Below, one piece after another: positions 1 through 33,566 of a stretch of DNA of 38,628 bases. Under the pieces are notes generated by a model. It had not been told where the DNA came from and ran no database searches. It was given only the letters and a program-made list of their open reading frames with translations. Positions within the stretch are counted from its first letter, which is position 1. Each line of letters opens with the position of its first letter. Origin of the DNA: Lachnospiraceae bacterium UBA7481 (GTDB lineage: Bacteria > Bacillota > Clostridia > Lachnospirales > Lachnospiraceae); assembly GCA_002478505.1 (NCBI GenBank), contig DLOP01000022.1:28919-67546 (forward strand), given 5' to 3'. A program made the position numbers and the translations under genes.

Positions 1-22
1 TCACATCATATCCTGCCTGCGT

Positions 23-1800: not shown

Positions 1801-1840
1801 GGAAATAGATTAAAAACGAATCATTACGAGGAGAGTGTCT

Positions 1841-2836: not shown

Positions 2837-2844
2837 TTTATATT

Positions 2845-4005
2845 ATGGAAGATATTGACAAATATGCATGTCATGACGAAGCAATGCAGTGTATGGAAAA
2901 GAATAATGCCGGAGAATATGAAATTATTCGTAATGCTGCAGGAGTACAAGAAGCGCACAGCAGATTATATTATCGTACTTATATGCCTGCTCCATTACAA
3001 CACGTAGATGAGCAGCAATTTCTGATAGATGAATGGGGACACCGGCTAAATGTCATTTATAGAGAAATCGGGAAAATGCAGGGGCTTAGCTTTTATGAAA
3101 CAGATTTCAAAGCTAGAAACAGACAGCTTTATAAGCAGGAATGCATTTCTGTTTTGGAAAATAATGATATAGAGATACAATTAACAGATGTATTTAGTAT
3201 TCGGTTATCAGAAGAAATTTTCAAAAAAAAGGTTTTATATGAATGCATGGAAGAACATCAAGACCGGATTTGTAGTAATATTCTTAGGGGAAAATTTAAA
3301 ATAAAACATCTGAATGCGACATTCCGACGGAATCAAATATGGGAAAATTCAAAATTTAAGAAAGTAAGTTTGTTGGAGTATAATCCACCAGCACCGGAAC
3401 AAGTACCTGAGTTGATGCGGGACTTGGAACTATATTGGAATGAAGCTATAAGGATAGATCCGGTTATAAAAGCGGGGCTTCTGGCGTATCAATTCTTAAC
3501 AATTATGCCGTATGAGCAAGATAATGAAATTTGGATCAGCATTTTGTTAAACTTCTTTTTGAGACAGAAGGGTATGGGAAGTGATTATTACATTCCATTT
3601 GCCAGATATTTTGTAGAGCAGGATGCGGAGCGGAAGTCGGCAATGCGTCAAGTTAGAGAAAGTGGAGATTACAGTAAATGGATTTCATTTTTTATACATG
3701 TTGTAGAAATGGCGGTTGCCAAAACGAATCAGGCGATTATGCAGTTGGAACAGATTCATAAGAATACCTTGATTTCTATCGAAAATGAAAAACAAAAATC
3801 ATTATTGCAGGAGATATCTGCATTTATGGAAGAAAATCCGGTTTTTGTCATTCATGATATCGAGCAGGAGTTTCATACAGCATATAATACCGCTGCGAAG
3901 TTAGTTGCTATTTTAGAAAAACATGACTTGATAAAGGAAATTTCAAATAAGAAGAGATACAGAGTCTATTGTTATGAGAGGTATATTAGGGAGATTCTGA
4001 GATAA
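2845..4005 (+). CDS. Fic/DOC-family protein with degenerate active site and C-terminal HTH
   Basis: YNPPAPEQVPELMRDLE..IDPVIKAGLLAYQFLTIMPY matches the Fic fold, but HPFxDGNGR is replaced by MPYEQDNEI. C-terminal YNTAAKLV..L HTH-like segment. Confidence 0.8.
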   Translation: MEDIDKYACHDEAMQCMEKNNAGEYEIIRNAAGVQEAHSRLYYRTYMPAPLQHVDEQQFLIDEWGHRLNVIYREIGKMQGLSFYETDFKARNRQLYKQECISVLENNDIEIQLTDVFSIRLSEEIFKKKVLYECMEEHQDRICSNILRGKFKIKHLNATFRRNQIWENSKFKKVSLLEYNPPAPEQVPELMRDLELYWNEAIRIDPVIKAGLLAYQFLTIMPYEQDNEIWISILLNFFLRQKGMGSDYYIPFARYFVEQDAERKSAMRQVRESGDYSKWISFFIHVVEMAVAKTNQAIMQLEQIHKNTLISIENEKQKSLLQEISAFMEENPVFVIHDIEQEFHTAYNTAAKLVAILEKHDLIKEISNKKRYRVYCYERYIREILR

Positions 4006-4482: not shown

Positions 4483-5208
4483 ATGTTCAAAATTGCAATA
4501 TGTGATGATGAAAATCTTTTTGCAGAAGAACTAAAAGAACTGATCTCCGGCTATTTGATGGAAAAAGGTCTTGTTTTTGAAATAGATACATATAGCTCCG
4601 GAGAGGCATTGGTAGAATTAGGCATTGAGATGGCACAGTATACTATCGTGTTTTTGGATATCAATATGGATAAAGTTGATGGTATCATGGTTGCTGAGAA
4701 AATCAGAGAAATAAGCCGGGATGTATTTATAGTATTTGTGACCGCATATGTGGATTATTCGCTGGAAGGATACCGATTAGATGTTGTAAGGTACTTGCTT
4801 AAGGGCAACGCCCATTTTCAGAGTAACATTAATGAATGTATGGATGCCATAATTAAAAAGTTGAATTATTCCGTGACAAAAAGGAAATTTGACTTTAGGG
4901 AAGGCAGAAAAGAATTATCCTTGGAAAGATTATTGTATATTGAGAGTAATCTTCATATACTTAGGTTTCATATTATGGAGGATGATATGAAAGAATACAC
5001 CATGTATGAAACATTAAATATATTTGAAACCAAACTGCCAGAGGATGATTTTATAAGGATACATCAGAGTTTTCTTGTAAATATAAAACATATCAAAAAT
5101 GTTGCCCGTTATAAAGTGATACTGACAAACGGGGTTGAGTTGACCATACCGAAAGCAAGGTATACAGGAGTTAAGAAAAAGTTTATAAAGTGTCAGGGAG
5201 AAATATAA
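4483..5208 (+). CDS. agrA: LytTR-family response regulator (AgrA-like)
   Basis: IAICDD, VFLDINM receiver; YIES..H and FIRIHQSFLVN LytTR domain. Confidence 0.92.
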   Translation: MFKIAICDDENLFAEELKELISGYLMEKGLVFEIDTYSSGEALVELGIEMAQYTIVFLDINMDKVDGIMVAEKIREISRDVFIVFVTAYVDYSLEGYRLDVVRYLLKGNAHFQSNINECMDAIIKKLNYSVTKRKFDFREGRKELSLERLLYIESNLHILRFHIMEDDMKEYTMYETLNIFETKLPEDDFIRIHQSFLVNIKHIKNVARYKVILTNGVELTIPKARYTGVKKKFIKCQGEI

Positions 5209-6501
5209 ATGTTTGATTTAATGCAGAATGTATTGTTGATATTTATTGAAACAATGTGTTGTAAGAGCTTTTTTGAAACTTTTGGTAAAATACGGCATAA
5301 AGGGTGGATTAATTTAATACAGGTTTTGCTGTTGCTTAGTAGTATGTGTTTTTATTCGTATGTATTATCTGAATATTTCGTACTAAGACAGATTATTGCG
5401 ATTTCTGTATTTTCAGTATTTATGCTTTGGTATGTTAAAATCAGCTTGAAAAAATCTTTTGTATTGGCAATACTATTTGACGCATTGCTGCTGGCAATGG
5501 ATTATTTGACATATTTAATTGGTAGCTGTCTGCATTTGGAAAGTGAGAGGTTAGGGCAACAGTATGTGGTTGTTTTGGTATATCTATTGGGAAAAGTCGT
5601 ATTATTTCTTCTTATTCTTATTATAAGAAAACAGTTTGGAAAAAAGACGATGGAAATGATGCTGGATACAGAATGGTTAAGGTTTTTGTTTTTTCCTGTT
5701 TTTACCATTGTAGCTATTTTGGCAATGGTATCTATTTTTGGATTTGTGCAGACAGTGGAGCAGGCAAATTTGCTTGCTGTCATAGCTTTTGGAATGGTGG
5801 GAATGAATATTGTTGTATTTTATTTAATTAACGATATCGTGGAAAGGGAAATGAAATTGCATGAAAACAGGGTTTTTCAGATTCAGGCGAAAAATCAGTT
5901 GGAAATGTACAAGTCTATTTCTGAAAACTTTGATAACTTAAAAAGAAAGACACATGAATATAAAAACCAGATTTCATGTATAGAATCCTTGCTGGAAAAA
6001 AAGCAATATTCCAAATTAGAAGAATATGTAAAAAAGATTTATGGTTCTCTGAATAATGTACCGGATGCCATTAATACCAATAATGTAATCATAAATGCCA
6101 TACTTAATACAAAGTATCAGGAGGCAGACGCAAAGGGAATTGTGTTTGCGTTCAGGGTAAATGATCTTTCAGAACTGAAAATGAAAGATGAGGATGTGGT
6201 TACTGTCCTTGCAAACCTTCTGAACAATGCCATTGAAGCATGTGAGTCATGTGAGGATAAAAAGGTAATTAAGTTCAAGTTCATTAAAGAAGATGATATG
6301 ATAATCATTGCGGTTAAAAATACCTTTAATTATGATGTTGTATATGAGAATGGTGAGATAAAAACTACGAAAACCTCAAGCGTTGAGGAACATGGTGTAG
6401 GAATCAAGAATGTGTTAAAAATTATTGAGAAATATGGTGGTGCATATGTCATTGAAGATAAGAATAAAGAATTTTACTTTTCAATTATTATTCCTGCATG
6501 A
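5209..6501 (+). CDS. agrC: GHKL sensor histidine kinase (AgrC-like)
   Basis: Multiple N-terminal TM segments, HEYKNQI H-box, NLLNNAIEA N-box, HGVGIKNV G-box. Confidence 0.92.
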   Translation: MFDLMQNVLLIFIETMCCKSFFETFGKIRHKGWINLIQVLLLLSSMCFYSYVLSEYFVLRQIIAISVFSVFMLWYVKISLKKSFVLAILFDALLLAMDYLTYLIGSCLHLESERLGQQYVVVLVYLLGKVVLFLLILIIRKQFGKKTMEMMLDTEWLRFLFFPVFTIVAILAMVSIFGFVQTVEQANLLAVIAFGMVGMNIVVFYLINDIVEREMKLHENRVFQIQAKNQLEMYKSISENFDNLKRKTHEYKNQISCIESLLEKKQYSKLEEYVKKIYGSLNNVPDAINTNNVIINAILNTKYQEADAKGIVFAFRVNDLSELKMKDEDVVTVLANLLNNAIEACESCEDKKVIKFKFIKEDDMIIIAVKNTFNYDVVYENGEIKTTKTSSVEEHGVGIKNVLKIIEKYGGAYVIEDKNKEFYFSIIIPA

Positions 6502-6539
6502 AAACGATATTAAAAAATTGTCTCTAAAACTTTTTTGTG

Positions 6540-6585
6540 CCGTTTTCTGCTATATACAGTCCGTTTTCTGCAAAATAACTTGATT
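6540..6585 (+). promoter_or_regulatory. LytTR-type direct repeats upstream of agrB
   Basis: CCGTTTTCTGC at 6540 and 6561 (21-bp period), then TTGATT at 6580; same motif as upstream of agrA. Confidence 0.7.
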
Positions 6586-6623
6586 TTTTCATTATATTAT
6601 TCATATTAAATAATCAAGGAGGC

Positions 6624-7214
6624 ATGTCTATGATAGAAAAGATGGCATTAAAGATCGTCAATCAAATGGAGGCGGAGAAGATAATAAGCAAATCAAACTG
6701 TGAATATTATGAATATGCATTAATAGGTGTGGTGGAACGTACTATAACAGTTGGAACCATGCTGCTATTAGGATTGATATTCAGGCTAGTTTTACCCACG
6801 ATTTGTTTTATGGTGTTCTTTTTTTCATTGAGAAAACGGACAGGAGGATTTCATGCGAACGAGTTTTGGCAGTGTTATCTAGGGACAGTCATATTTTATA
6901 TTGCAATTATGCAGATTGTACCTACACTCTGTAAAAAGCTGACTGTTATGTATGTAATGCTATTTCTTGCAATACTTTTAATCTGCATAATGGGGACAAT
7001 AAACCACCCTAATATGGATATGAACAAAAGCGAATTACAAGAGTCTAAGAAAGCGGCAAGACTGATAGTTTTAATGGAAGTAATGATAATTGCTGTCATG
7101 ATTTATCTGAAAGCTGGTATTCTGTATATTGGCTATATGTCGGTGGCTATTATATTATGTGCATTCTTGATGTGTCTGGCAAAAATCACTAAGCAGGAGG
7201 TAAAGGTAAAATGA
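6624..7214 (+). CDS. agrB: accessory gene regulator B family peptide-processing membrane protein
   Basis: EYYEYAL, LRKRTGGFHA....C motif, hydrophobic segments. Confidence 0.92.
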   Translation: MSMIEKMALKIVNQMEAEKIISKSNCEYYEYALIGVVERTITVGTMLLLGLIFRLVLPTICFMVFFFSLRKRTGGFHANEFWQCYLGTVIFYIAIMQIVPTLCKKLTVMYVMLFLAILLICIMGTINHPNMDMNKSELQESKKAARLIVLMEVMIIAVMIYLKAGILYIGYMSVAIILCAFLMCLAKITKQEVKVK

Positions 7215-7360
7215 AAGGAAAAGAAAAAATTCGTGTAAGGGCTTTAAGAGTTGTGGAGAGAATGCTCCGCAATGAGGTTGAAAAGGTTAGTTGTGGGTGG
7301 CCTCCAATCTGTTCTGGACTTACTCATCAGCCGAAGAGACCGAAGAGGGAAGAGGAATAA
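7211..7360 (+). CDS. agrD: AgrD-like cyclic autoinducer precursor (49 aa; missing from ORF track)
   Basis: MKGKEKIRVRALRVVERMLRNEVEKVSCGWPPICSGLTHQPKRPKREEE*; ATGA overlap with agrB, AGGAGG upstream, C-x4-HQPxxP pattern. Confidence 0.85.
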   Translation: MKGKEKIRVRALRVVERMLRNEVEKVSCGWPPICSGLTHQPKRPKREEE

Positions 7361-7511
7361 GATTTAATAATTGATGTGGCAATAATCGTTAATTAAAGCT
7401 TGCGTTGATAATTTTATTAAGTTTAAGGGGGATCTAGGATTGTTAAAGTGACTCTGTTGAACTCTTAAATCGTAGGAAAGTGTACGAGAACTAGAAGGAG
7501 AGAAATTAAAT

Positions 7512-8615
7512 ATGAAGAATTTCATTCGCAGAGTAGTAGGTTTAGCATTGGCATTGGTGTTAGTATGTGGCAGCGGTATGCCTGCAAGAGCTGCCACGAT
7601 TAACGATTTATCAGGCAAGGAGTTTATATCTGGCAGTAATGGCACGATTGATCAATATGTGAATGACATTGCACCAAGGCATGTAGCGGTTTTGGCACAA
7701 TTAGGTAGTATTGATGTGTGCGCAGAATATGGTGTAAGCAGCGGAATTCAGCAGTTTACCCTTGACGGAGATCAGTTAGTACCAGATAATATCTACTATT
7801 ATCTTGTTTACGGGGATGATAGAATTGTAGGGGTAATTACGGCACATCAAGATGAGAACGGAAATATAGTTACAGGTTTGGTAACAGGATATGTGGATGT
7901 ATTAAATGCTGAACTTGTAGACAGTGATGAAAAATACATATTTGTTTCAACGGGAAGCGCATTATATTTAGTAAAAGGAAAAGATAATGCTTATATGTTG
8001 GAGCATCTTGATGAATATGAAGAAATATCTGATATGCAAAATATTGGATATGGAGACTTTAATTCTAAAGAAATTGGAAATGCAATAAATGCGATTGATG
8101 TTGCAAATATACCTGTAGCGCAAGCTTCTTCTATTGATCTTAATGTTCCGATTGTAAGACAGTATAGTAACCCGATATGCTGGGCAGCATCAATGGCATC
8201 AATATTGAATTATGTGAATGGAACAAGTTATACAGCTGTAAATGTTGCAAATGCGACCGGGAAGGGGCTCAATGGCGCATCTTATAATGAAGTAAAGAGT
8301 TATTATACAGGGACATATAAAATGTCAGTAACGGGAACTGGGGCTATGACTTCATCAAAAGTATTTGAGTGTCTTAACAATGGTCAGCCAATACAGGTAT
8401 TCCACTTGCCATCATCAGGAGTTGGACACTCTTTAGTTTTAACAGGAGCGTTTCAAATTTCATCTGATGTGTTTTATGTTTACATGGATCCTAATTACAG
8501 TAGTTATCGTTCTATAGAGGTCGTGGCAGCGGCAAAGTCCGATGGAACAAAGATGGGGATAGACGTAGGCGGAACTACAATGTACTGGAGTAATTCAATT
8601 TATGACATTCATTAA
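7512..8615 (+). CDS. secreted papain-like cysteine protease (pre-pro-enzyme)
   Basis: Signal peptide ending PARA; VPIVRQYSNPICWAA (Gln/Cys), GHSLVLTG (His), YMDPN. Confidence 0.8.
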   Translation: MKNFIRRVVGLALALVLVCGSGMPARAATINDLSGKEFISGSNGTIDQYVNDIAPRHVAVLAQLGSIDVCAEYGVSSGIQQFTLDGDQLVPDNIYYYLVYGDDRIVGVITAHQDENGNIVTGLVTGYVDVLNAELVDSDEKYIFVSTGSALYLVKGKDNAYMLEHLDEYEEISDMQNIGYGDFNSKEIGNAINAIDVANIPVAQASSIDLNVPIVRQYSNPICWAASMASILNYVNGTSYTAVNVANATGKGLNGASYNEVKSYYTGTYKMSVTGTGAMTSSKVFECLNNGQPIQVFHLPSSGVGHSLVLTGAFQISSDVFYVYMDPNYSSYRSIEVVAAAKSDGTKMGIDVGGTTMYWSNSIYDIH

Positions 8616-9539: not shown

Positions 9540-9597
9540 AACGGAAAAGATGAATTATCCGTATATAATTAAAAGAGGTTAGGGAGGTGGATTGATT

Positions 9598-10407
9598 ATG
9601 AATGTATCTGGCGTTAGCAATATTTTGGATATGACTGCCACAAATCAGGGGAATCATACCCAGACAAAAGAAATTGCATGGGTAACTATGGAACTCAAGT
9701 TTCTGGAATTAGACCATTCGGTTGAACTTACGATATCCAAAGAGTCTAAGGAGCAGTATCGGAAAATGATACAAATGATACAACCTAATCAGATGGATAT
9801 CAAAGAGTTAAACATTACTAGAAACGGAACACTTTTGTCGCCGGGTTGGGGTCTTGAACCGACATTATCGAAATTATATACTTCGATGAATGGACCGGCT
9901 GCAGCCGAGGGGTTAAAGATTGAGAAGAAAGCGGAAAATCTCCTTGGGGCATATGCAAAGCTGTATGACGAGATCAGCCAAGGGTATGATAACGGCACAA
10001 AGGCGTTCTATGTCTACAAAAATGGGAAGCCGACCGAACTGACAAAGGAAGAAGCCCTTGCGGAACTGGACAGATCCTATGGAAAAATATCTGAGCGTAT
10101 GGAAGCAGAGGAAAAGGTCCGTCGGAGGGAGGCTGATTGGTATGATGATTCGGTTAAATGGCGGATGGAGATATTTGATGTGAAAGAAAGCAGGGGCAGG
10201 GATGCGACTGAGGAAAGAGATTTGCTCCGGGATTATGAACAGAAGAAACAACGCAATAAGGCATCTGATGATATTGAAATTAAAGGATTTAGTAAAAAGA
10301 TGTTAGATGTTATCAATGATTTTAAGGAGCAGTATGGAAAAAACGATATCTTTACAATATTATCAGGGATCGGGTTGTTTGAAAGATTAAAAGGTGACAG
10401 GGATTAA
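9598..10407 (+). CDS. hypothetical helical protein, tandem paralogue 1
   Basis: GGAGG RBS; long identical stretches with 10556-11359 (e.g. YAKLYDEISQGYDNGTKA). Confidence 0.8.
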   Translation: MNVSGVSNILDMTATNQGNHTQTKEIAWVTMELKFLELDHSVELTISKESKEQYRKMIQMIQPNQMDIKELNITRNGTLLSPGWGLEPTLSKLYTSMNGPAAAEGLKIEKKAENLLGAYAKLYDEISQGYDNGTKAFYVYKNGKPTELTKEEALAELDRSYGKISERMEAEEKVRRREADWYDDSVKWRMEIFDVKESRGRDATEERDLLRDYEQKKQRNKASDDIEIKGFSKKMLDVINDFKEQYGKNDIFTILSGIGLFERLKGDRD

Positions 10408-10446
10408 TATTTCATACCCAAAATAGTCATTTTATGCAATTCGGGT

Positions 10447-10473
10447 TAAGGAAACAGGCGTAACAGCCGATAA
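10447..10473 (+). promoter_or_regulatory. sigma28 (SigD/FliA) promoter
   Basis: TAAG-N15-GCCGATAA. Confidence 0.7.
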
Positions 10474-10555
10474 ATTATATAAAACTACATATTTTATATG
10501 CAGGTCAAGGATGGCAAAAGAATATTTTTATCAAGTTCAAGGAGGAGAATTGATC

Positions 10556-11359
10556 ATGAGTGTATCTGGCGTTAGCAATATTATGGGCAATCTTATCGAT
10601 ATGACTGCCACAAATCAGGGGAATCATACCCAGCCAAAAGAAATTGCAGGGGTAACTACGGAACTCAAGTTTCTGGAATTAGACAAGCCGGTAGAAATTA
10701 CGATATCCGATGAGGCTAAGGTGCAGTATCGGAAAATGGCACAATCTTATACGCAAGATTTCAGCGGGCAGCTAAAGGAGTTAGAACTCACCAGAAGCGG
10801 ACAACTTTTGACTGGTTTCGGCTTTGACCCGGCATTAAATGCTGCAGCCGGGAGAGGGGTAAAGATTGAGGAGAAAGCGGAAAATCTCCTTGGGACATAT
10901 GCGAAGCTGTATGACGAGATCAGCCAAGGGTATGATAACGGCACAAAGGCGTACTATGCCTACAAAAATCTGAAGCTGACCGAACTGACAAAGGAAGAAG
11001 CCCTTGCCGAACTGGACAGATCCTATGGAAAAATATCTGAGCGTATGGAAGCAGAAGAAAAGGTTCGTCGGAGAGAGGCTGATTGGTATGATAATTCGGT
11101 TAAATGGCAGATGGAGATATTTGATATAAAAGAAAGCAGGGGCAGAGATGTGGCTGCGGAAAGAGCAGATTTTCTCCGACAGGTTGAGCTTGATAAGAAA
11201 CGAATGAAAAATGAGTCTTCTGATATTGAAATTGAAGGATTTAGTAAAAAGATGTTAGATGTTACCAATGATTTTAAGGAGCAGTATGGTACAAAAGATA
11301 TCCATACAATATTATCAGAAGTAATATCAGAGATCGGGTTGTTTAAAAGATTAAAATAG
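10556..11359 (+). CDS. hypothetical helical protein, tandem paralogue 2
   Basis: GGAGGAG RBS at 10541; start aligned with paralogue 1 (MSVSGVSNI). Confidence 0.8.
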   Translation: MSVSGVSNIMGNLIDMTATNQGNHTQPKEIAGVTTELKFLELDKPVEITISDEAKVQYRKMAQSYTQDFSGQLKELELTRSGQLLTGFGFDPALNAAAGRGVKIEEKAENLLGTYAKLYDEISQGYDNGTKAYYAYKNLKLTELTKEEALAELDRSYGKISERMEAEEKVRRREADWYDNSVKWQMEIFDIKESRGRDVAAERADFLRQVELDKKRMKNESSDIEIEGFSKKMLDVTNDFKEQYGTKDIHTILSEVISEIGLFKRLK

Positions 11360-12080: not shown

Positions 12081-12821
12081 ATGGAAGATTCTACAAATAG
12101 GGAAGTCATAAATTTCCTTTTGCAAAGGTTCAAAATAGAAAGAAATAAATTTGACAGATCAGGTGTATATGCATATACACAGCGTCTGCTTGCTTACAAT
12201 TCAAATAAAATTGAAGGAAGTACGCTTACTGAGGAACAGACGGCATCTTTGTTTGATCATGGAACTTTGCCAAAATCAGATGATTATTATCGTGCGAAAG
12301 ATGTTGAGGAAATGAATGGTCATTTTTTGATGTATAATAAAATGCTGGATACGCTGGATGAACCATTGTCAGGAGAGTTAATAAAGAAGTTTCATTATGA
12401 GTTGAAATCAGGCGTTTTTAAAGATCGTGCTAATGGATACGCTATAGGTGAATATAAAAAGCGTCCGAATATGATCGGGATATATCAGACTGTAAAACCT
12501 GATGATGTAGAGCAGGAAATGAATTTACTGATGGATTGGTACATTCATCAGGATGTAAATATTTCTAAATTGGCTGAGTTTCACGCAAGATATGAGAGTA
12601 TTCACCCATTTCAGGATGGAAATGGCAGGACAGGCAGGTTGATCCTGTTTAGAGAATGTTTGAAGAATGAAATTGTGCCGATTATCATTGAGGATGCAAA
12701 TAGAAACGAATATCTGGATGCATTAAAGGAATATAGGGAAGAAAAAAGTTTGGATAAATTGACTGCGCTTTTTGAGAAAGAGCAGCAGTTTTACATGGAA
12801 AAATGTAAGTATTTTTTGTAA
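12081..12821 (+). CDS. Fic-family AMP transferase (class II)
   Basis: Intact HPFQDGNGRTGR; N-terminal inhibitory SNKIEG motif. Confidence 0.92.
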   Translation: MEDSTNREVINFLLQRFKIERNKFDRSGVYAYTQRLLAYNSNKIEGSTLTEEQTASLFDHGTLPKSDDYYRAKDVEEMNGHFLMYNKMLDTLDEPLSGELIKKFHYELKSGVFKDRANGYAIGEYKKRPNMIGIYQTVKPDDVEQEMNLLMDWYIHQDVNISKLAEFHARYESIHPFQDGNGRTGRLILFRECLKNEIVPIIIEDANRNEYLDALKEYREEKSLDKLTALFEKEQQFYMEKCKYFL

Positions 12822-13083: not shown

Positions 13084-13100
13084 TTTAGGGGGATTTTCAG

Positions 13101-13173
13101 AGCTGCTGACGGGAATCGGACCCGTGACCTCCGCACTACCAATGCGACGCACTACCGACTGTGCTACAGCAGC
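13101..13173 (-). tRNA. tRNA-Thr(GGT)
   Basis: Minus strand GCTGCTGTAGCACAGTCGGTAGTGCGTCGCATTGGTAGTGCGGAGGTCACGGGTCCGATTCCCGTCAGCAGCT forms a cloverleaf; anticodon GGT; no encoded CCA. Confidence 0.95.
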
Positions 13174-14530: not shown

Positions 14531-15613
14531 ATGTTTCAGATAAAAGGGAAAAAAATTCTGCAGCAGGCTGGCAGGAGGCTGTTCTGCCTGCTGGTCTGCG
14601 CGGCGCTGCTTGCCGCTTTGAGTGGATGCAGGGACGATACGGAGTTTGTGCTTACTACGGGATTCTATGAAAATGAGGTATTCCGTATCGAGAGGATGAG
14701 CTGTTACACGCCGGAGGTCATGATCTATCTGAACAATATCAGGAATCAGTATGCAGATGTTTTTGGAGAGGAGATCTTTGCCCAGAGCATCGACGGACTT
14801 CCGATTGAGGAGAGCATTAAGCAGACTGTCTTGGCAAGGATTGCAAAGATCAAAATGATGAATCTGATGGCGGAATATTATGAGATTACATTGGATGAGC
14901 GGGAACAGGAGCTGGTTGAAAACGCTGCGGCGGAATATTATCAGTCATTAAGCGCTGATGAGATAGCTGCCATGGATGGGGCGACGCAGGAAACGGTGCG
15001 GCAGCTTTATGAAGAATATGCTCTTGCCAATAAGGTGTATCAGAGTCTTGTGCAGGATGTGGACCGGGAGATCAGTGATGATGAAGCGCGGACGGTGACA
15101 GTGCGGCAGATATTCCTCACGACCACATACGATAGGGGCAATGGAGAACGCGTTGCTGTTTCAACGGCGGAGCGGGAGGCGGTCTACCGGCAGGCGGAGA
15201 GCATTTGTGAGCGGATTGCGGCAGGAGAGGATTTTAATGCATTGGCATCGGAATATAGCGACGCAGAGGAAGTGGAGGCATATTACCGCAAAGGGGAGCA
15301 TGAAGAAGCTTTGACGGAGGCGGTCTTTAACCTTGCAGAGAACGAAGTCAGCGGTATCGTGGAAGGAGATCAGGGATATTATATCTTCTGGTGCATCAGT
15401 ACCTATGATATGGAGCAGACGGAGGCAGCCAAACGTGAAATTTTAAAAGAGCGGCAGCAGGAGATGTTTGGACAGATCTACACGATGTTTATAGGAGACA
15501 AGAAGTGTTATTTAAATGAAGAATTATGGAACACTGTCAGCTTCACAGAGCAGGCATCCGGCGCAACCTCCAATTTCTTTGACATTTATGCGAAATATTT
15601 TTCTGCTAATTAA
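14531..15613 (+). CDS. parvulin-type peptidyl-prolyl isomerase lipoprotein (PrsA/SurA-like)
   Basis: Lipobox LSGC; GEDFNALASEYSD and VSGIVEGDQGYYI rotamase motifs. Confidence 0.85.
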   Translation: MFQIKGKKILQQAGRRLFCLLVCAALLAALSGCRDDTEFVLTTGFYENEVFRIERMSCYTPEVMIYLNNIRNQYADVFGEEIFAQSIDGLPIEESIKQTVLARIAKIKMMNLMAEYYEITLDEREQELVENAAAEYYQSLSADEIAAMDGATQETVRQLYEEYALANKVYQSLVQDVDREISDDEARTVTVRQIFLTTTYDRGNGERVAVSTAEREAVYRQAESICERIAAGEDFNALASEYSDAEEVEAYYRKGEHEEALTEAVFNLAENEVSGIVEGDQGYYIFWCISTYDMEQTEAAKREILKERQQEMFGQIYTMFIGDKKCYLNEELWNTVSFTEQASGATSNFFDIYAKYFSAN

Positions 15614-15622
15614 GTGTATAAG

Positions 15623-15682
15623 CTGGTACATAAACTGGCATATTAACTGTTACATTATCTGGTACATTATCTGGCACATGAG
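15623..15682 (+). repeat. 5 x 12-bp degenerate tandem repeat
   Basis: CTGGTACATAAA CTGGCATATTAA CTGTTACATTAT CTGGTACATTAT CTGGCACATGAG. Confidence 0.85.
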
Positions 15683-15780
15683 GTTTACATAACCTGCAGT
15701 TTTATAATTCAAGTTCCAAAAATGATTTCATTTATGATGTTTTTGGAACTTGAATTATAAAACAAAGAGTTATGTAAACC
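15682..15780. repeat. 99-bp palindromic element, copy A
   Basis: GGTTTACATAA..24-bp inner stem..TTATGTAAACC; core 15713-15749 is identical to the reverse complement of 33414-33450. Confidence 0.9.
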
Positions 15781-15795
15781 GTATAAAACAAATTA

Positions 15796-15822
15796 CTAGC
15801 ACTCATTCAAAATGAGTGCTAA
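15796..15822 (+). promoter_or_regulatory. CIRCE operator (HrcA)
   Basis: CTAGCACTC-N9-GAGTGCTAA. Confidence 0.92.
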
Positions 15823-15829
15823 TTTTTTC

Positions 15830-15858
15830 TTGACATTTACTGCTGGCAGTATTAAACT
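15830..15858 (+). promoter_or_regulatory. sigmaA promoter of htpG
   Basis: TTGACA-N17-TAAACT. Confidence 0.75.
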
Positions 15859-15906: not shown

Positions 15907-18003
15907 ATGTCAGCAAAGCAAGGAAGTTTATCTATTAATAGCGAAAACATATTCCCGATCATTAAGAAGTGGCTGTATTCCGACCACGATATCTTTTTCC
16001 GGGAGTTGATCAGTAACGGTTGTGACGCGATTACCAAATTAAGGAAGCTGGATATGATGGGAGAGTATTCCCTGCCTGCGGAGTATAAGCCGAAGGTGGA
16101 AGTGATCGTCAGCCCGGAGAAAAAGACGATCCGGTTTATTGATAACGGTCTTGGCATGACAGCGGACGAAGTTGAGGAATACATCAATCAGATCGCATTT
16201 TCCGGCGCTACGGATTTTATTGAGAAATATAAGGACAAGGCCAATGAAGACCAGATCATCGGTCATTTCGGACTGGGATTTTATTCCGCGTTTATGGTGG
16301 CGGATGAGGTGCAGATCGACACATTATCTTATAAAGAAGGCGCGAAAGCAGTCCATTGGGCATGTGACGGCGGGACGGAATATTCCATGGAAGACGGCAG
16401 CAAGTCGGAGGTTGGTACGGAGATCACACTGTTTGTGAATGAGGACTGCCTGAAATTTGCTAATAAATATGAGGCGGAATCCGTTCTGAAGAAATATTGT
16501 TCTTTCATGCCGTATGAGATCTATCTGAGTCAGGAAGGCGAAGAACTGACGCAGATGATCGACCCGGAGGAAAAACTGGATACGGATATCGTGATCGAAA
16601 CGGTCAAGCAGGAGGCGAAGGAAGGGGAAGAACCGAAGGAGCGTTTAAAGATCAAAAAACGTCCTGAGCCGATCAATGATACCACGCCGCTCTGGGCGAA
16701 GCATCCCAATGATTGTACTAAGGATGAGTATATCGCATTTTACCGGAAGGTATTTAATGATTACAAGGAGCCGTTGTTCTGGATCCACCTGAATATGGAT
16801 TATCCGTTTAATCTGAAGGGTATCTTATATTTCCCGAAGATCAATATGGAATATGAATCCATCGAGGGCGTGATCAAGCTCTACAATAATCAGGTATTTA
16901 TCGCGGATAATATCAAGGAGGTCATTCCGGAGTTCCTGATGCTCTTAAAAGGCGTGATCGACTGCCCGGATCTGCCGCTGAATGTATCCAGAAGTGCGCT
17001 GCAGAATGATGGGTTTGTTAAGAAGATTTCCGAATATATCAGCAAGAAGGTTGCCGATAAGCTGTCGGGCATGTGCAAGACGGAACGGGAAGAATATATT
17101 AAATACTGGGATGATATCAGTCCGTTTATTAAGTTTGGCTGCTTAAAGGATGATAAGTTCTGCGAGAAGATGACAGACTATATCCTCTTTAAGAATCTGG
17201 CGGGCGAGTATCTGACACTGCCGGAGTGTCTGGAGGTTAAGCCGATCGACACAGAAGACGAAGAGAGTGCTGCCGAGGACGGCAGCTCAGAGAGTGGAAA
17301 AGCTGTGGATGCAGACGGCAACGCAGTCGAGGCGGAGATTGTAGATGCCGATGAAGAAGATGCCGAGGAGGATGCCGCAGCAGAGGAAAAGAAGGAGAAG
17401 ACCGTTTATTATGTGACGGATGAGCAGCAGCAGAGCCAGTATATCAATATGTTCAAAAAGGCAAAGAAGGATGCCGTGATGCTGACGCACAGTATTGACC
17501 AGCCGTTTGTGACGCAGCTGGAGAGCAAGAATGAGGGCATTAAGTTTATGCGTATCGACGCTGACCTGACGGATGACCTGAAAGCCAAGACAAGCAAAAA
17601 GGCGCAGGAAGAACTGGACAAGCAGACAGAGGAGCTTGAGAAGATCTTTAAAAAAGCCATCAAGAAGGATAATATCAAAGTTAAAGTGGAAAAGCTCAAG
17701 AACAAGGATATCTCTTCTATGCTTACAGTCTCCGAGGAGAGCCGCAGGATGCAGGATATGATGAAGATGTATTCCATGCCCGGAATGGATATGGGGATGT
17801 TCGGCAAGGAAGGACAGACGCTGATCCTGAATGCGAATAATAAGCTGGTGCAGAAGATTTTAGAGGAAAAGGAAGGCGACAAGGTACAGCTTCTCTGTGA
17901 GCAGCTTTACGATCTGGCGCTTCTGCAGAATGCGCCGCTGGCGCCGGAGGCGATGACGAAGTTTGTGGCGCGGAGCAATAAGATCATGATGATGCTGGCT
18001 TGA
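15907..18003 (+). CDS. htpG: Hsp90 chaperone HtpG
   Basis: RELISNG.DA, DNGLGMT, IGHFGLGFYSAF, DLPLNVSRS motifs. Confidence 0.97.
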   Translation: MSAKQGSLSINSENIFPIIKKWLYSDHDIFFRELISNGCDAITKLRKLDMMGEYSLPAEYKPKVEVIVSPEKKTIRFIDNGLGMTADEVEEYINQIAFSGATDFIEKYKDKANEDQIIGHFGLGFYSAFMVADEVQIDTLSYKEGAKAVHWACDGGTEYSMEDGSKSEVGTEITLFVNEDCLKFANKYEAESVLKKYCSFMPYEIYLSQEGEELTQMIDPEEKLDTDIVIETVKQEAKEGEEPKERLKIKKRPEPINDTTPLWAKHPNDCTKDEYIAFYRKVFNDYKEPLFWIHLNMDYPFNLKGILYFPKINMEYESIEGVIKLYNNQVFIADNIKEVIPEFLMLLKGVIDCPDLPLNVSRSALQNDGFVKKISEYISKKVADKLSGMCKTEREEYIKYWDDISPFIKFGCLKDDKFCEKMTDYILFKNLAGEYLTLPECLEVKPIDTEDEESAAEDGSSESGKAVDADGNAVEAEIVDADEEDAEEDAAAEEKKEKTVYYVTDEQQQSQYINMFKKAKKDAVMLTHSIDQPFVTQLESKNEGIKFMRIDADLTDDLKAKTSKKAQEELDKQTEELEKIFKKAIKKDNIKVKVEKLKNKDISSMLTVSEESRRMQDMMKMYSMPGMDMGMFGKEGQTLILNANNKLVQKILEEKEGDKVQLLCEQLYDLALLQNAPLAPEAMTKFVARSNKIMMMLA

Positions 18004-20652: not shown

Positions 20653-21017
20653 GTTGCGAGTCTCCTTTAAAGCAGCTAATATACCAATTAATGGATCAAC
20701 GTCTGTGCTACAACTGCTTTTTGGGGTACTGCTTTGTCAGCCACAAAAAATAAAAAGTCCCCAAAAGGGCTGACTATTTATATTATATATAAGCGTAAAC
20801 ATATGTATTTATATCACATTTAAATAATTTTTGCAACGACAAATATTGACAATAAAATAATAAACCCTGATATCTAAGGAAAATCACCACATTATGTATT
20901 CTTAATGTATCTTTTTTGAAAAAAGATTGACGTGCTATGAAAAAAAGCATATAGTGTTTATTTGAAGAAGTTTTTATTTTAAGTATGGAAACATACATAT
21001 TGAGGAGGAAAAGCAAA

Positions 21018-21605
21018 ATGAAAAAGAGCTTAGTAGTATCAGTAGCAGTAGGACTAAGCATGCTGCTGCTGGCAGGATGCGGAGAGAAACAGGGGTTTGA
21101 GGACGCTGAACATTATACTTTGAACAAATGTGATGCCTCAAGTGAAAAACTTGTTGAAGTAAGTGTAGGCAGTCCATGGAGTTATGACGATAAAAATTCC
21201 CACGATGAGAAAGATATGTACCTGGATCATGAGGACGGCGGTTATATTTATATCAGTAACGAGGCGTTTGAACCGTTATATACTCATGCGGCTGCGTATG
21301 TTAGCGGAAAAAGTGTAGACTCCTCCACTAAGGAATATTTTGAGGAGAATGGTTATCTGGATTATAAATGTAACTTTGAGGTGATCGGCTCTGCGTTTGA
21401 CAGAAGCGATCTGATCCTTGCGAAAGAATCTTATACTTATGATAACGGCAGTACAAAGTCAGATGAGAAATGTACCTATCTTCTGCTCAAGTATAGTGAT
21501 GACGGGCTCATTGAATTTTTGACAGTCGCTTTTTATGGTGTGGATATCGACGACTGGGAGGATGAGGATTTTGAGGAACTGGCAAGAAACCTGTTTGGCA
21601 GATAA
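21018..21605 (+). CDS. lipoprotein 1 (C-terminal module only)
   Basis: Lipobox LAGC; mature part is highly similar to the C-terminal domain of 21705-23273; GAGGAGG RBS. Confidence 0.8.
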   Translation: MKKSLVVSVAVGLSMLLLAGCGEKQGFEDAEHYTLNKCDASSEKLVEVSVGSPWSYDDKNSHDEKDMYLDHEDGGYIYISNEAFEPLYTHAAAYVSGKSVDSSTKEYFEENGYLDYKCNFEVIGSAFDRSDLILAKESYTYDNGSTKSDEKCTYLLLKYSDDGLIEFLTVAFYGVDIDDWEDEDFEELARNLFGR

Positions 21606-21704
21606 TAGCTGGTGATTTTTGTTTCATTCTGGTTATTTAAGTGTAGAAGATGTGCATATTTGATGCGTAATCTATTTAATATTATATTTTTTGGAGGAAA
21701 AAAG

Positions 21705-23273
21705 ATGAAAAAGAAGTTGATGACGCTTGCGGTTGCATTAGGTCTTTCGCTGGCAGTGCTGACAGGCTGCGGCAAATCCAAACCCACTGTGGAATCTCTG
21801 GTCGATGGAATGTTTGAGGATGAGATTGAGTCGCTGACAATGGAAACGGAGGCGAATATTAAGCTTTCAGCGACTATAAAGGGGGACAGTGCTGATATCT
21901 CTACGGGTTTAGACGGTGAGATGAAGATTTCCGGTATAGACGGAAAAGGCGATCTGATATACTATTCTGATGGCAAGATGACCGCAGCCGTGGAGGCCAT
22001 GGGGAAAGAGAGTGTGGAGTTTGAGGGATACGTAGTAATGAATGACGAACTGTCGACGTCTTATCTGCATATTGATAATTCGGATGCATGGAATAAGATG
22101 GAAACGGATATTGATAAATCCGACTATTTATCTAACATTGATAAGTTCAAAGAGGCGTGGATGGATGTTTTGAAGGAGAATGGCGAACTTGCTAAAGATA
22201 CTGAGAAAGTAGAAGGCGAGGAGTGCTATGTGATTACTGCTACAGTCAAAGGTGATGATTTATCAGAGGTTTTAAAACTGTCTCAGACCAACTTCAAAGA
22301 TCAGATGGAAAAGTACGGAGACATCTACGAAGAAATTGTTAAAATGTGTGAAGAGGAAGGTATAAAATTAGATATTGATTGGAACGCCTTCGCCGAGTAT
22401 ATATCCGTGGATATTACTTGTTACATTTCCAAAGATACCGGCTATCCGGTAAAAATTGAAGTGGACGCATCTGACACAGATCTTTATGGATTGGTAGAGC
22501 AGATAGTAAAGGATACCGGTCTGGACAAATATGACATCATGGATGAGATCGAGGAACTCTCTTTTTCAAAGTTATATTTTTCCGCGGTGATTTCTAATAT
22601 TAATGATACAGAGGTAGAGGTTCCGGATGATGTGATAGACAATGCGATAGATCTAACAAATGAATTCAACAATCTCATGGGCGGTATCGCGGGCGATCCG
22701 GTTGAGCCTGACCCGATCGAAACAGATCCGGTTGAGCCTGACCCAGTCGAAACAGATCCGGATGAAAATGGGGAAGAATATCATACCTTAAACAAATGTG
22801 ATGAATCGAGTGAAAAACTTGTCGATGTCTACGTAAGCGGTTCATGGAGTTATGACAATGAATATTCTAAAGATGGGGTATATATGTACTTGGACCATAA
22901 GGACGGCGGTTATATTTATATCAGCAATGAGGCGCCTGACCCATTATATTCTTATGCTGTGGCTTATGTTATGGGAACAAGTGTAGGCTCCTCCGATATA
23001 GAATATTTTGAGGAGAATGGTTATCTGGATTATAAATGCGATTTTGAAGTGATCGGCTCCGCGTTTGGCAGAAGTGATCTGATTCTTGCGAATGAATCCT
23101 ATACTTATGATAACGGCAGTACGAAGTCGGATGAGGAATGTACCTATCTGCTGATCAGGTATAGCGATGGCGGTCTTATTGAGTTTTTGATGGTTGATTT
23201 TTATAATAAGACTACCGCCGGCTGGACGGATGCGGATTTTGAGGATTTGGCAAGGGAACTGTTTGGCAGATAA
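21705..23273 (+). CDS. lipoprotein 2 (DUF6612-like N-domain, Pro/Asp/Glu linker, C-module)
   Basis: Lipobox LTGC; EKVEGEECYVITATV and YISKDTGY..K..D pattern; 30-bp repeats at 22695-22761. Confidence 0.8.
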   Translation: MKKKLMTLAVALGLSLAVLTGCGKSKPTVESLVDGMFEDEIESLTMETEANIKLSATIKGDSADISTGLDGEMKISGIDGKGDLIYYSDGKMTAAVEAMGKESVEFEGYVVMNDELSTSYLHIDNSDAWNKMETDIDKSDYLSNIDKFKEAWMDVLKENGELAKDTEKVEGEECYVITATVKGDDLSEVLKLSQTNFKDQMEKYGDIYEEIVKMCEEEGIKLDIDWNAFAEYISVDITCYISKDTGYPVKIEVDASDTDLYGLVEQIVKDTGLDKYDIMDEIEELSFSKLYFSAVISNINDTEVEVPDDVIDNAIDLTNEFNNLMGGIAGDPVEPDPIETDPVEPDPVETDPDENGEEYHTLNKCDESSEKLVDVYVSGSWSYDNEYSKDGVYMYLDHKDGGYIYISNEAPDPLYSYAVAYVMGTSVGSSDIEYFEENGYLDYKCDFEVIGSAFGRSDLILANESYTYDNGSTKSDEECTYLLIRYSDGGLIEFLMVDFYNKTTAGWTDADFEDLARELFGR

Positions 23274-23365
23274 TAGCTGGTGGTTTCTGTTAAGTTTTGT
23301 ATATTAAAGATAGAAGATATGCGTATTTGATACTATAATTATTAAAATTTTCAGGAGGAGAAAAG

Positions 23366-24985
23366 ATGATAAAGAAGCTGATGCCGCTTGCGTTAGCAGT
23401 TGGGTTTTCATTGGCAGTTCTGACAGGCTGCAGCAAAAAACCTACAGTGGAGTCTCTTGTTGACGGCATGTTTGACAGCGAGATTGAATCGCAGAAAGCG
23501 GATATAGAGGCAGATATTAAACTTTCACCAACTGCACAGGGAGTTAGTTTTGATATTACCATTGGCGGAGATTTTGAGATGCAGGTTTCCGGCATGAATG
23601 GTAAAGACGATCTGACGACCTATATTGATGGCAAAGTAAGCATGAAAGCGCCGGCGTTCAGCGTTGACGAGAAACTGGGATTTGAAACATATTCGATCGT
23701 AGATGACGAAACGCTTACGTGCTATGCATGTGCTGATGATGGCGTATGGTATACGGAGGAATTGGATGATGTGTGGGATCAGGATGCCTATGACAAGATG
23801 ATCGAGGAGATGAAGGATGTCTTGAAAGAGAATGGCGAGCTTGCTGAAGACACTGAGAAAGTAGAAGGCGAGGAGTGCTATGTGATCACAGCTACGGTCA
23901 AAGGTCGTGACTGCGTTGCTATCTTTAAACCGATGAAGGGCATGATTGATGATGTGATTGATGAGGTGATTGATGATGCAATTCATGCTGCAATGAAAAA
24001 AGCAGGCATGAACGTTGGTATTGACATTGACGTTAATATTGATATGGTTTCTTGGTCTGAGTATTGGGCGGCAGATATCACTTGTTACATTTCCAAAGAT
24101 ACCGGCTATCTGGTAAAAACTGAGATTGACATGTCTGATACGGATATTTACGGCATGGCAGAACAGATGCTGAAGGATCTTGTCAGCGCGGCAGAACAGA
24201 TGCTGAAGGATCTTGGTCAAGAGGAAGGGCTCGACTTCGTCCAGGATGCGATTGACGATGCCCTGAATAGAATCGAAGATATCTCTGTATCAAAGTTTGA
24301 TATTTCTGTAGTGATCTATGATGTCGATGATACGGAAGTAGAGGTTCCGGATGATGTGATAGATGATGCGGTAGAGATATTTGATGCAGATGCTCTCGGC
24401 GATTTCATGGGCAGTATTGATGATGACGTGATCGAAGAACCGCCGGTTGAACCAGATAGAGATATAATCGGGACAGATCCGGATGATGGGGATAATATTG
24501 ACAGCTTTACATTTAATAAGGACTATGAAGATGATGAGTTCCTTTGTGAAGTAAAGGTTCCAAATGGTTGGACTGTAGATGTTGATTTTTTTGATTCTGA
24601 ATACGGTCTTGTATGTTTAGACACGGATAATAGCAATGGGTATATCTGGGTACAAAATTATTTGTCAGGGGCTATGTATTACTCGCTTCTGAATGGCGGC
24701 GAGCTTCCGGTTGATGAATATGACTGGCTGGATAGTTACAATTATAACTACAATATGGAGATCACGGTGATCGGTACCGCATTTGGCGGAAGCGACGTTA
24801 TGTTAGTTAAGCAGTCCTACGATAGTGAGGATGGATGGACTTCTAAAGAGACCTATGTCTGCATTGAGTATGATGATGGCGGTAACAGGCAATTCCTTTC
24901 AATTGACTGCGATAATATTTATGATCTGGATGATTGGACAGAAGATGATTTTCTGGATCTTGCCGTATCTTTGTTTGGCAGATAA
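23366..24985 (+). CDS. lipoprotein 3 (DUF6612-like N-domain, divergent C-module)
   Basis: Lipobox LTGC; paralogue of lipoprotein 2; 33-bp internal duplication at 24157/24190; ends LFGR. Confidence 0.8.
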   Translation: MIKKLMPLALAVGFSLAVLTGCSKKPTVESLVDGMFDSEIESQKADIEADIKLSPTAQGVSFDITIGGDFEMQVSGMNGKDDLTTYIDGKVSMKAPAFSVDEKLGFETYSIVDDETLTCYACADDGVWYTEELDDVWDQDAYDKMIEEMKDVLKENGELAEDTEKVEGEECYVITATVKGRDCVAIFKPMKGMIDDVIDEVIDDAIHAAMKKAGMNVGIDIDVNIDMVSWSEYWAADITCYISKDTGYLVKTEIDMSDTDIYGMAEQMLKDLVSAAEQMLKDLGQEEGLDFVQDAIDDALNRIEDISVSKFDISVVIYDVDDTEVEVPDDVIDDAVEIFDADALGDFMGSIDDDVIEEPPVEPDRDIIGTDPDDGDNIDSFTFNKDYEDDEFLCEVKVPNGWTVDVDFFDSEYGLVCLDTDNSNGYIWVQNYLSGAMYYSLLNGGELPVDEYDWLDSYNYNYNMEITVIGTAFGGSDVMLVKQSYDSEDGWTSKETYVCIEYDDGGNRQFLSIDCDNIYDLDDWTEDDFLDLAVSLFGR

Positions 24986-33340: not shown

Positions 33341-33382
33341 AATTAATTTTATGTATAAGGTAATTGCGAAAGAGTTAAGTCC

Positions 33383-33481
33383 GGCTTACATAACTCTCTG
33401 CTTGAAAAAATATGTTCCAAAAACATCATAAATGAAATCATTTTTGGAACATATTTTTTCAAATTACGAGTTATGTACACC
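33383..33481. repeat. 99-bp palindromic element, copy B
   Basis: GGCTTACATAA..22-bp inner stem..TTATGTACACC; same core as copy A, inverted. Confidence 0.9.
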
Positions 33482-33566
33482 TCATGCGTAAAATTATAGA
33501 ACGAAAAACTATAAAGCTATTGTTTTGCAAATGCCTAATTTTATGTATTATAGAGAGGTATAAATC

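What the first reader, a model, noticed from the sequence alone, without database searches (positions are those of the whole stretch)
15682..15780. Two exactly 99-bp palindromic elements with an invariant core and XerD-arm-like ends (second copy 33383-33481)
Seen: both copies are 11-bp arm + 20 nt + 37-bp core + 20 nt + 11-bp arm. The core GTTCCAAAAATGATTTCATTTATGATGTTTTTGGAAC, including its unpaired 17-nt loop, is identical in opposite orientation. The 20-nt linkers differ between copies yet stay self-complementary except for a 5-nt bubble, which suggests selection on fold and spacing. Known: the arms TTATGTAAACC/TTATGTAAGCC/TTATGTACACC resemble the Bacillus dif XerD(RipX) arm TTATGTAAACT; ACATAAC..bubble..stem..GTTATGT also echoes folded tyrosine-recombinase substrates (integron attC, CTX attP). 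Inference: possibly an undescribed dispersed element, i.e. a recombinase-mobilised miniature element, a XerD/nucleoid docking site or a structured RNA.
Basis: partly seen in the sequence, partly recalled or inferred. Interest (0 to 1): 0.85.

Follow-up and report, generated by a model that had tools for sequence, protein, structure and literature searches.

The report
Mini-transposon with a self-correcting hairpin
The two 99-base palindromes are two of about 48 copies in this gut bacterium of the hairpin core of a gene-less mini-transposon; the hairpin's arms likely copy from each other, and its ends and tip stay nearly unchanged long after the transposon ends decay, so the host may now be using them.

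Summary
The genome holds 48 loci, and the same hairpin occurs in 7 of 45 congeners and 0 of 400 other genomes of the order. Copy 2 lies inside a 181-bp element (33357-33537) with 16-bp terminal inverted repeats and an exact 11-bp target duplication. Relatives lack it at that site. The same ends bound autonomous ~1.75-kb DDE insertion sequences, so this is a MITE. The Xer/attC mobilisation model fails: empty sites carry no arm, there is no XerC arm, extrahelical base or integron integrase. Two things stay unusual. Mid-stem changes between orthologous copies are all compensated (29 of 29, 17 transversions), with interior flips and fold-back insertions, which points to template switching. Arms and tip stay 97% identical between species, against 78% at synonymous sites, even where the transposon ends have decayed. 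The tip hides a covarying 4-bp mini-stem. Why arms and tip persist is not shown; docking of a host protein, XerD being one candidate, is open.

The parts
15682..15780 (+). 99-bp hairpin core, copy 1 (old copy, no recognisable transposon ends)
   Evidence: orthologous copies upstream of htpG in G024 and G016 with compensated stem changes
15682..15693 (+). left outer arm, 12 bp (reverse complement matches the B. subtilis XerD arm at 10 of 11)
15769..15780 (+). right outer arm, 12 bp
15713..15749 (+). 37-bp conserved core: 10-bp stem, asymmetric internal loop, mini-stem
15728..15737 (+). 4-bp mini-stem with 2-nt loop at the tip; outer pair covaries T-A, G-C, C-G, A-T
   Evidence: 53, 10, 3, 2 of 68; none unpaired
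15678..15681 (+). ATGA leader, 76-88% conserved per position across 99 copies
15623..15679 (+). 12-bp tandem repeat (4.8 copies) where the left flank of the carrier would be; likely slippage at the hairpin foot
   Evidence: similar 10-13-bp arrays flank other copies
15797..15821 (+). CIRCE-like inverted repeat (name recalled) between copy 1 and the htpG promoter; host feature, not part of the element
   Evidence: Hsp90 gene 15907-18003
33357..33537 (-). 181-bp MITE carrying copy 2
   Evidence: site empty in contigs of 3 of 4 runs laid (joint 33340-33554)
33383..33481 (-). 99-bp hairpin core, copy 2
33357..33372 (+). terminal inverted repeat of the IS right-end type
33522..33537 (-). terminal inverted repeat of the IS left-end type, 16 nt upstream of the AGAGG ribosome-binding motif of the next gene
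33346..33356 (+). target-site duplication, left copy (11 bp)
33538..33548 (+). target-site duplication, right copy (11 bp, exact)

Best explanation
The 99-bp palindrome is the internal hairpin of a 181-bp gene-less mini-transposon (MITE) with insertion-sequence ends, likely moved in trans by the DDE transposase of a ~1.75-kb insertion sequence, its arms likely kept complementary by polymerase template switching, and its outer arms and tip likely held constant because a host protein recognises them. Shown: the ends, the target duplications, empty sites, the matching autonomous element, landing about 10-26 nt upstream of ribosome-binding motifs, the all-compensated mid-stem, interior flips, and the slow change of arms and tip. 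Inferred: that this transposase moved it (about 0.85); that arm-to-arm copying at replication rewrites the stem (about 0.75); that selection at each locus on a folded or protein-bound form, rather than copy-to-copy conversion alone, keeps the arms and tip (about 0.5). The binding protein is not identified; XerD is the best-named candidate for the arms only.
For: Carrier: exact 11-bp duplication around 33357-33537; 5 of 15 copies with both ends intact show an in-register 9-13-bp duplication, against 1 of 120 shifted controls; empty site in 3 of 4 runs. Parent: 13 distinct 1.73-1.80-kb elements with the same ends, several with 10-12-bp duplications, encoding a 485-aa DUF772/DDE protein; the MITE keeps their left/right end asymmetry; G045 contigs end in sequence 81-87% identical to such an IS end over 52-80 nt. 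The end motif is abundant (28-112 matches) in exactly the 7 of 45 genomes that carry the hairpin and has 0-3 matches in the other 38. 38 of 48 ends with an outward ribosome-binding motif lie 10-26 nt from it (137 ends examined). Self-copying: 29 of 29 mid-stem differences in 22 orthologous pairs are compensated, 17 by transversion; interior inverted at 4 sites, tip fold-back insertions in at least 8 copies, several absent from their orthologues; bubble perfected in 2 of 99 copies. PMC8794818 (abstract) describes this mechanism. Constraint: arms 512/528 and core 790/814 identical, variable stem 513/572, four-fold synonymous sites 1988/2558; flanks 70-73%; mini-stem paired in 68 of 68; unpaired cells in the outer arm are mostly G-T on one strand, in both gene orientations.
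Against: No gene for this transposase was found assembled in any of the 45 genus genomes; one non-carrier has two weak 31-32% matches, and the whole IS as DNA hit 0 of 5 carriers. The joint at copy 2 skips 213 bp, 21 more than element plus duplication, so it is not a perfectly clean empty site. 10 of 15 intact copies show no in-register duplication. Copy 1 and most sense-oriented copies have no recognisable ends (2 of 28 sites), so their MITE origin rests on end remnants and on insert sizes of mostly 150-205 bp. A more distant lineage carries the hairpin behind a different left flank, and other MITEs with the same ends carry unrelated hairpins, which allows a separately mobile hairpin. Relatives' copies were collected with a core pattern, so the core identity is inflated. 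Whole-copy and tip-only replacement at orthologous sites shows that copy-to-copy conversion probably also acts. Copies are often deleted, so selection per site is weak. The G-T bias may be inherited from a few master copies.
Confidence: 0.72

Rival explanations
1. Same MITE origin, but no host function: the hairpin breaks or stalls forks, and repair from other copies plus arm-to-arm copying keeps core and arms uniform (concerted evolution of selfish DNA).
For: Lineage-specific tip variants sit on different locus-specific stems: AAC loop in 9 of 20 G060 loci fetched, G-C pair in 6 of 9 G021 copies. Orthologous sites sometimes carry different subfamilies. Frequent deletion.
Against: Conversion starting at the tip should fade outward, yet the outer arms are conserved (97%) beyond a locus-specific mid-stem (90%). 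The tip's internal loop was never seen perfected in the copies listed, while the bubble was.
Confidence: 0.3
2. The hairpin with its ATGA leader is a separate REPIN-like unit moved as folded single-stranded DNA by an HUH-type enzyme, and it merely rides in the MITE.
For: Conserved ends, variable self-complementary spacer and fixed length resemble REPINs (PMC3337134 passages). One-strand G-T bias and a one-sided tetranucleotide. Different left flank in a distant lineage. An 84-bp single-arm MITE exists.
Against: No Y1 transposase in G000 or G016; the intact hits in G024 and G060 look like ordinary IS200-type TnpA (only the G024 protein was read; type judged from recall). Only UvrC-sized GIY-YIG proteins in 5 of 5. 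0 of 128 neighbouring frames match a transposase or recombinase family. At L424 the single-arm form is orthologous to full copies in four other sources, so it is a deletion. The arms are not themselves palindromes.
Confidence: 0.12
3. One reading: a folded substrate integrated by XerC/XerD or an integron-type integrase, like CTX attP or attC.
For: Arms match the XerD arm 10 of 11; xerD is present; the 84-bp form looks like a one-arm target with a 6-bp core.
Against: Empty sites have no arm. No fixed XerC arm, no extrahelical base. No IntI over cut-off in 5 of 5. DDE-type ends and duplications. Common arm variants change positions shared by the three dif sequences printed.
Confidence: 0.05
4. 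A structured RNA: the hairpin acts in polycistronic mRNA, for example as an RNase III site, like Correia and ERIC elements.
For: 63 of 74 classified sites lie between co-oriented genes; RNA fold of -39 to -50 kcal/mol on either strand; precedent in PMC10969869.
Against: Both orientations are common and the G-T bias follows the element strand, not the transcribed strand. Transversion pair swaps without G-U intermediates. A 2-nt loop is too small for RNA (established). No Rfam family. A side effect on mRNA is likely but does not explain the conservation.
Confidence: 0.12

Closest known systems
Bacterial MITEs (Correia/NEMIS, ERIC, RUP, Coxiella QMITE2; review PMC10969869)
   Same: Under 500 bp, non-coding, terminal inverted repeats, target duplications that fade with age, AT-rich intergenic sites, stable stem-loop, ends shared with an IS.
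   Different: Parent is an IS1182-like DUF772/DDE element below the family cut-off, with 9-13-bp duplications and landing upstream of ribosome-binding sites. The internal hairpin, not the ends, is the most conserved part and persists across species after the ends decay.
REPINs of Pseudomonas (PMC3337134)
   Same: Conserved outer ends, fixed spacing, spacer that differs between copies yet stays self-complementary, long vertical persistence.
   Different: Ends are not REP palindromes, no RAYT found, the unit is framed by DDE-IS ends and duplications, and it has a conserved structured tip.
dif / IMEX attP (CTX phage) and XerD loading sites of B. subtilis
   Same: Two inverted XerD-arm-like 11-mers on a fold-back strand with a mismatch bubble beside them.
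   Different: No XerC arm, no integration at a dif-like target, 84 dispersed sites. The XerD unloading paper could not be read (title only), so its site consensus was not compared.
Integron attC sites (features recalled)
   Same: Outer 7-mers fit the R''/R' consensus at 6 of 7; one strand folds better.
   Different: Symmetric 5/5 spacer, no extrahelical bases, no IntI, housekeeping neighbours, and the sequence beyond the would-be crossover is conserved in all copies.

Membership tests
Bacterial MITE | Short (<500 bp), non-coding, AT-rich intergenic, multicopy | tested here: met
   181 bp; 48 loci in G000; 179 copies at 84 sites
Bacterial MITE | Terminal inverted repeats | tested here: met
   16-bp repeats at 33357-33372 and 33522-33537; intact at 26 of 74 classified sites on the right end
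Bacterial MITE | Target-site duplication in young copies | tested here: met
   exact 11 bp at copy 2; 5 of 15 against 1 of 120 controls
Bacterial MITE | Ends shared with an autonomous IS | tested here: met
   13 IS copies in viral contigs; IS-like contig ends in carrier G045. Transposase gene not found assembled in carriers
Bacterial MITE | Filled and empty orthologous sites | tested here: met
   some empty sites are deletions
Bacterial MITE | Mobilisation in trans shown | not testable with these tools
   needs a transposition assay
IS1182 family (parent element) | NF033551 score over cut-off | tested here: not met
   68.4 bits against 270; DUF772 over cut-off, DDE_Tnp_1_6 below
dif / IMEX attP | XerD-binding arm | tested here: met
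   10 of 11 to B. subtilis dif; sequence likeness only
dif / IMEX attP | 6-bp centre followed by a fixed XerC arm | tested here: not met
   that stretch is the hypervariable stem, 54 variants in 99 copies
dif / IMEX attP | Integration into a dif-like target | tested here: not met
   empty sites lack the arm; single-arm form is a deletion at L424
dif / IMEX attP | XerD binding; position near the terminus | not testable with these tools
   no binding assay; assembly in 189 contigs
Integron attC | Extrahelical bases and asymmetric L boxes (recalled) | tested here: not met
   ungapped symmetric pairing
Integron attC | IntI integrase and cassette arrays | tested here: not met
   0 of 5 over cut-off; neighbours are housekeeping genes
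REP / REPIN | Conserved ends with variable self-complementary spacer | tested here: met
REP / REPIN | Each end a short palindrome | tested here: not met
   12-bp arms are not self-complementary
REP / REPIN | RAYT gene in the genome | tested here: inconclusive
   no Y1 hit in G000 or G016; IS200-like hits in 3 of 5; genomes 72-97% complete
Rfam RNA family | Score over gathering threshold | tested here: not met
   only tRNA in the window; sub-threshold microRNA hairpin hits

The most novel reading that the evidence does not exclude
A transposon-delivered hairpin has been domesticated in one gut Lachnospiraceae clade. The MITE seeded some 50 sites per chromosome, its ends were lost, and the remaining self-repairing hairpin now serves as a chromosome-wide landmark: two XerD-arm-like sites held 77 bp apart around a structured, strand-specific tip bound by a host factor (XerD, SMC-related or other). 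The arm 10-mer is also enriched outside the elements (20 seen, 8 expected), as a host binding motif would be.
Probability: 0.2. Interest if true: 0.78.

Novelty: new variant of a known kind. Interest (0 to 1): 0.47.

Why it matters
As a MITE family it is ordinary in kind. It is a clean natural record of template switching: dozens of orthologous hairpins whose arms co-evolve by double transversions, flips and fold-backs, which warns against reading stem covariation as proof of a functional RNA. The inverted conservation (core outlives the ends, about sevenfold fewer differences than synonymous sites) is unusual and makes domestication of a MITE interior directly testable with short oligonucleotides. 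The parent IS's landing upstream of ribosome-binding sites puts these hairpins inside operons of essential genes such as gyrB-gyrA, cmk-ispH and tRNA synthetases.

Tried and rejected
Rfam: nothing beyond tRNA at gathering level; only generic microRNA hairpin hits below threshold. Core pattern in viral contigs: 0. MITE against plasmids and phages: only short chance pieces, best E 0.01. Hairpin interior against 13 IS copies: no significant match with the common variant. The G-C tip variant aligns best to the IS left-end hairpin in 12 of 13 copies (22 of 28 identical to L136; null maximum 7 of 13), but this was 1 of 6 variants tried after the fact, its score barely exceeded the null maximum and the IS copies are related, so descent of the tip from the IS end is suggestive only; the parallel idea for the G014 MITE tip failed. 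A 9-bp duplication reading of copy 2 (my note) was replaced by the 11-bp one once the IS ends were known. A left-end remnant at copy 1 could not be placed; a joint 15611-15790 in one run has unknown letters between and is a weak hint only. RNA run X4 covers the region, but contigs cannot show transcription, strand or ends. A dif-like 19-mer in G000 was not found in the six other carriers, so the true dif is unsettled. The 2.8-fold excess of the arm 11-mer in 38 non-carriers (206 against 74 for the reversed pattern, summed) uses a crude control. The cluster look-up for the transposase's names could not be made. DUF772 hits in G045 and G060 had no pair of these ends. Literature searches returned 0 papers and search 52 one unrelated paper; the library lacks most subscription journals and ISfinder was not available, so 'undescribed' rests on these searches only. 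No supplements were read.

Full report
Observation. Both 99-bp palindromes are in the window as described and fold far better than shuffles. A profile search of the genome found 48 loci; 27 are gap-free and full length, and only one is visibly decayed by point changes. The same element is in 7 of 45 genomes of the genus by pattern and by covariance model, in 0 of 400 others drawn from the order, in 0 viral contigs and in 53 metagenome stretches. The two genome records returned are titled Lachnospiraceae. One carrier, G014, has only tip-and-stem remnants.

The carrier. Copy 2 lies in a 181-bp element, 33357-33537, with 16-bp terminal inverted repeats and an exact 11-bp duplication on both sides. 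Contigs from 3 of 4 runs join 33340 to 33554 with 3 letters between; the skipped 213 bp are 21 more than element plus duplication. Of 15 copies with both ends intact, 5 show an in-register duplication of 9-13 bp, against 1 of 120 shifted controls. A scan of viral contigs with the end motif gave 100 stretches, among them 13 distinct elements of 1.73-1.80 kb encoding relatives of a 485-aa DUF772/DDE protein, several with 10-12-bp duplications. The protein scores 68 bits on the IS1182 model against a cut-off of 270, so I call it IS1182-like only. The MITE keeps the different left and right ends of this IS. The end motif has 28-112 matches in the same 7 genomes that carry the hairpin and 0-3 in the other 38. 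The gene was not found assembled in carriers, but four G045 contigs end in sequence 81-87% identical to an IS right end, as expected for a multicopy element lost in assembly. Of 137 ends examined, 48 face a ribosome-binding motif with an open frame and 38 of these lie 10-26 nt from it. That targeting probably accounts for the orientation bias: the right end is intact at 18 of 35 antisense sites but 2 of 28 sense sites.

Old copies. Copy 1 has no recognisable ends. It is orthologous to copies upstream of htpG in two congeners. Across relatives, many bare copies keep end remnants, and filled sites mostly exceed empty ones by 150-205 bp, not 99. I infer that bare copies are decayed MITEs. Exceptions exist: one lineage carries the hairpin behind a different left flank, and sister MITEs with the same ends carry unrelated long hairpins. 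An 84-bp single-arm form lacks exactly the stretch between two 6-bp repeats; at L424 it is orthologous to full copies in four other sources and so is a deletion product.

How the stem evolves. In 68 aligned copies (one per site group from relatives, distinct-stem metagenome copies and the two window copies; 3 of 69 candidates with a 1-nt insertion were left out), 22 of 43 pairs change on both sides and 97.2% of cells pair. In 22 orthologous pairs all 29 mid-stem differences are compensated, 17 by transversion; 11 uncompensated differences lie near the bubble or the tip. The interior is inverted at 4 sites, at least 8 copies carry fold-back insertions at the tip, several absent from orthologues, and 2 of 99 copies have the bubble copied away. 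These are the products expected of template switching (PMC8794818, abstract and opening text; PMC8604942, search listing only).

What stays constant. In the same 22 pairs, arms are 97.0% and core 97.1% identical, the variable stem 89.7%, and four-fold synonymous sites of neighbouring genes 77.7% (19 pairs gave coding alignment). Flanks are 70-73%. The core figure is inflated because relatives' copies were collected by a core pattern; the arms were not in that pattern, and the unfiltered G000 set differs from consensus at 32 of 648 arm and 27 of 918 core positions. Arm-to-arm copying alone would not slow substitution (inference). The tip holds a 4-bp mini-stem whose outer pair is T-A, G-C, C-G or A-T and never unpaired in 68 copies, while its loop varies from 2 to 4 nt. 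Mismatches in the outer arm are mostly G-T on the element's own + strand, whichever way the genes run. At one site where the interior is deleted the arms have drifted. This points to sequence- and structure-specific constraint. Against a pure selection reading, tip variants spread across loci within a lineage and orthologous sites sometimes carry different subfamilies, and copies are often deleted.

The Xer and attC ideas. The arm matches the B. subtilis XerD arm at 10 of 11 (PMC3025954 passages) and xerD is present. The arm 10-mer is enriched outside elements (20 against 8 expected; the two common arm variants are not). But there is no fixed XerC arm, empty sites have no arm, no integron integrase passes cut-off in 5 of 5 carriers, only UvrC-sized GIY-YIG proteins were found, no Y1 transposase is in G000, and none of 128 neighbouring frames matches a recombinase or transposase family. 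IMEX integrate at dif (PMC9226527 passages); this element does not. XerD docking on the arms remains possible. The paper on XerD unloading sites was seen only as a title in a reference list.

Comparison and novelty. It meets the MITE definition in PMC10969869 (section 2.1 and passages) and behaves like a REPIN in its spacer (PMC3337134 passages). Searches found no description. Earlier scan notes report similar hairpin MITEs and ribosome-site targeting in other Lachnospiraceae; these are unchecked notes, and I tested only the targeting, on this family. Names recalled without a call: CIRCE, attC anatomy, IS200-type TnpA, UvrC. Verdict: a new MITE family with an unusually persistent, self-correcting core; interest 0.47; the domestication reading has probability about 0.2.

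Noticed in passing
window 15797-15858: CIRCE-like inverted repeat (name recalled) directly before a TTGACA-17-TAAACT promoter of htpG; copy 1 sits 16 bp upstream of it.
   Followed up: partly
L315-L342 (G014), L300 (G045), G000 C36:14089-14297, C53:5942-5991, C139:8093-8143: Other MITE families with the same IS ends: about 142 bp and about 210 bp with unrelated long hairpins and conserved tips, and a minimal 50-bp form; they form tandem and hybrid arrays with the 99-bp type.
   Followed up: partly
G000 C91:7306-7629; L057, L059, L062: A separate ~320-bp palindromic repeat with its own terminal inverted repeats, abutting several copies.
   Followed up: no
G000 C187 near 2132; L284 near 6936; L246-L257: A ~75-bp hairpin module flanked by a duplicated extended -10-like motif, so possibly a promoter-targeting element; in one lineage it is fused to the 99-bp hairpin.
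   Followed up: partly
L005 about 1080-1340 (G014): Four tandem imperfect hairpins with 8-bp arms between two remnant cores, in a spacer about 670 bp longer than its G000 counterpart.
   Followed up: no
G000 C103:3193-3211 (L395): 19 bases identical to the right part of B. subtilis dif; candidate dif, not found in the six other carriers.
   Followed up: partly
G000 C23:9886, C83:8220, C137:25111; L423, L433, L435; L222, L232: Solo arm-like 11-mers shared between species outside any element, some just downstream of promoter-like sequence; possible host binding motif.
   Followed up: partly
all 13 IS copies, positions about 19-46: A conserved short hairpin followed by a T run inside the IS left end, upstream of the transposase gene; terminator-like, and weakly similar to the 99-bp tip.
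   Followed up: partly
window 4483-8615: agr-like locus (LytTR regulator, GHKL kinase, AgrB) followed by a secreted-looking protein with a papain-like C70 match; no AgrD peptide looked for.
   Followed up: no
window 1835-4005, 12081-12821, 13100-13173: RhuM-family gene, two Fic-domain genes and tRNA-Thr(GGT); may mark an island inserted at the tRNA.
   Followed up: no
window 9592-11359 and 20985-24985: Tandem paralogous genes with 71-93% DNA identity in blocks; the second group looks like lipoproteins (weak DUF6612 match in one).
   Followed up: no
window 1-22 and 298-319: Perfect 22-bp inverted repeat 275 bp apart at the window's start.
   Followed up: no
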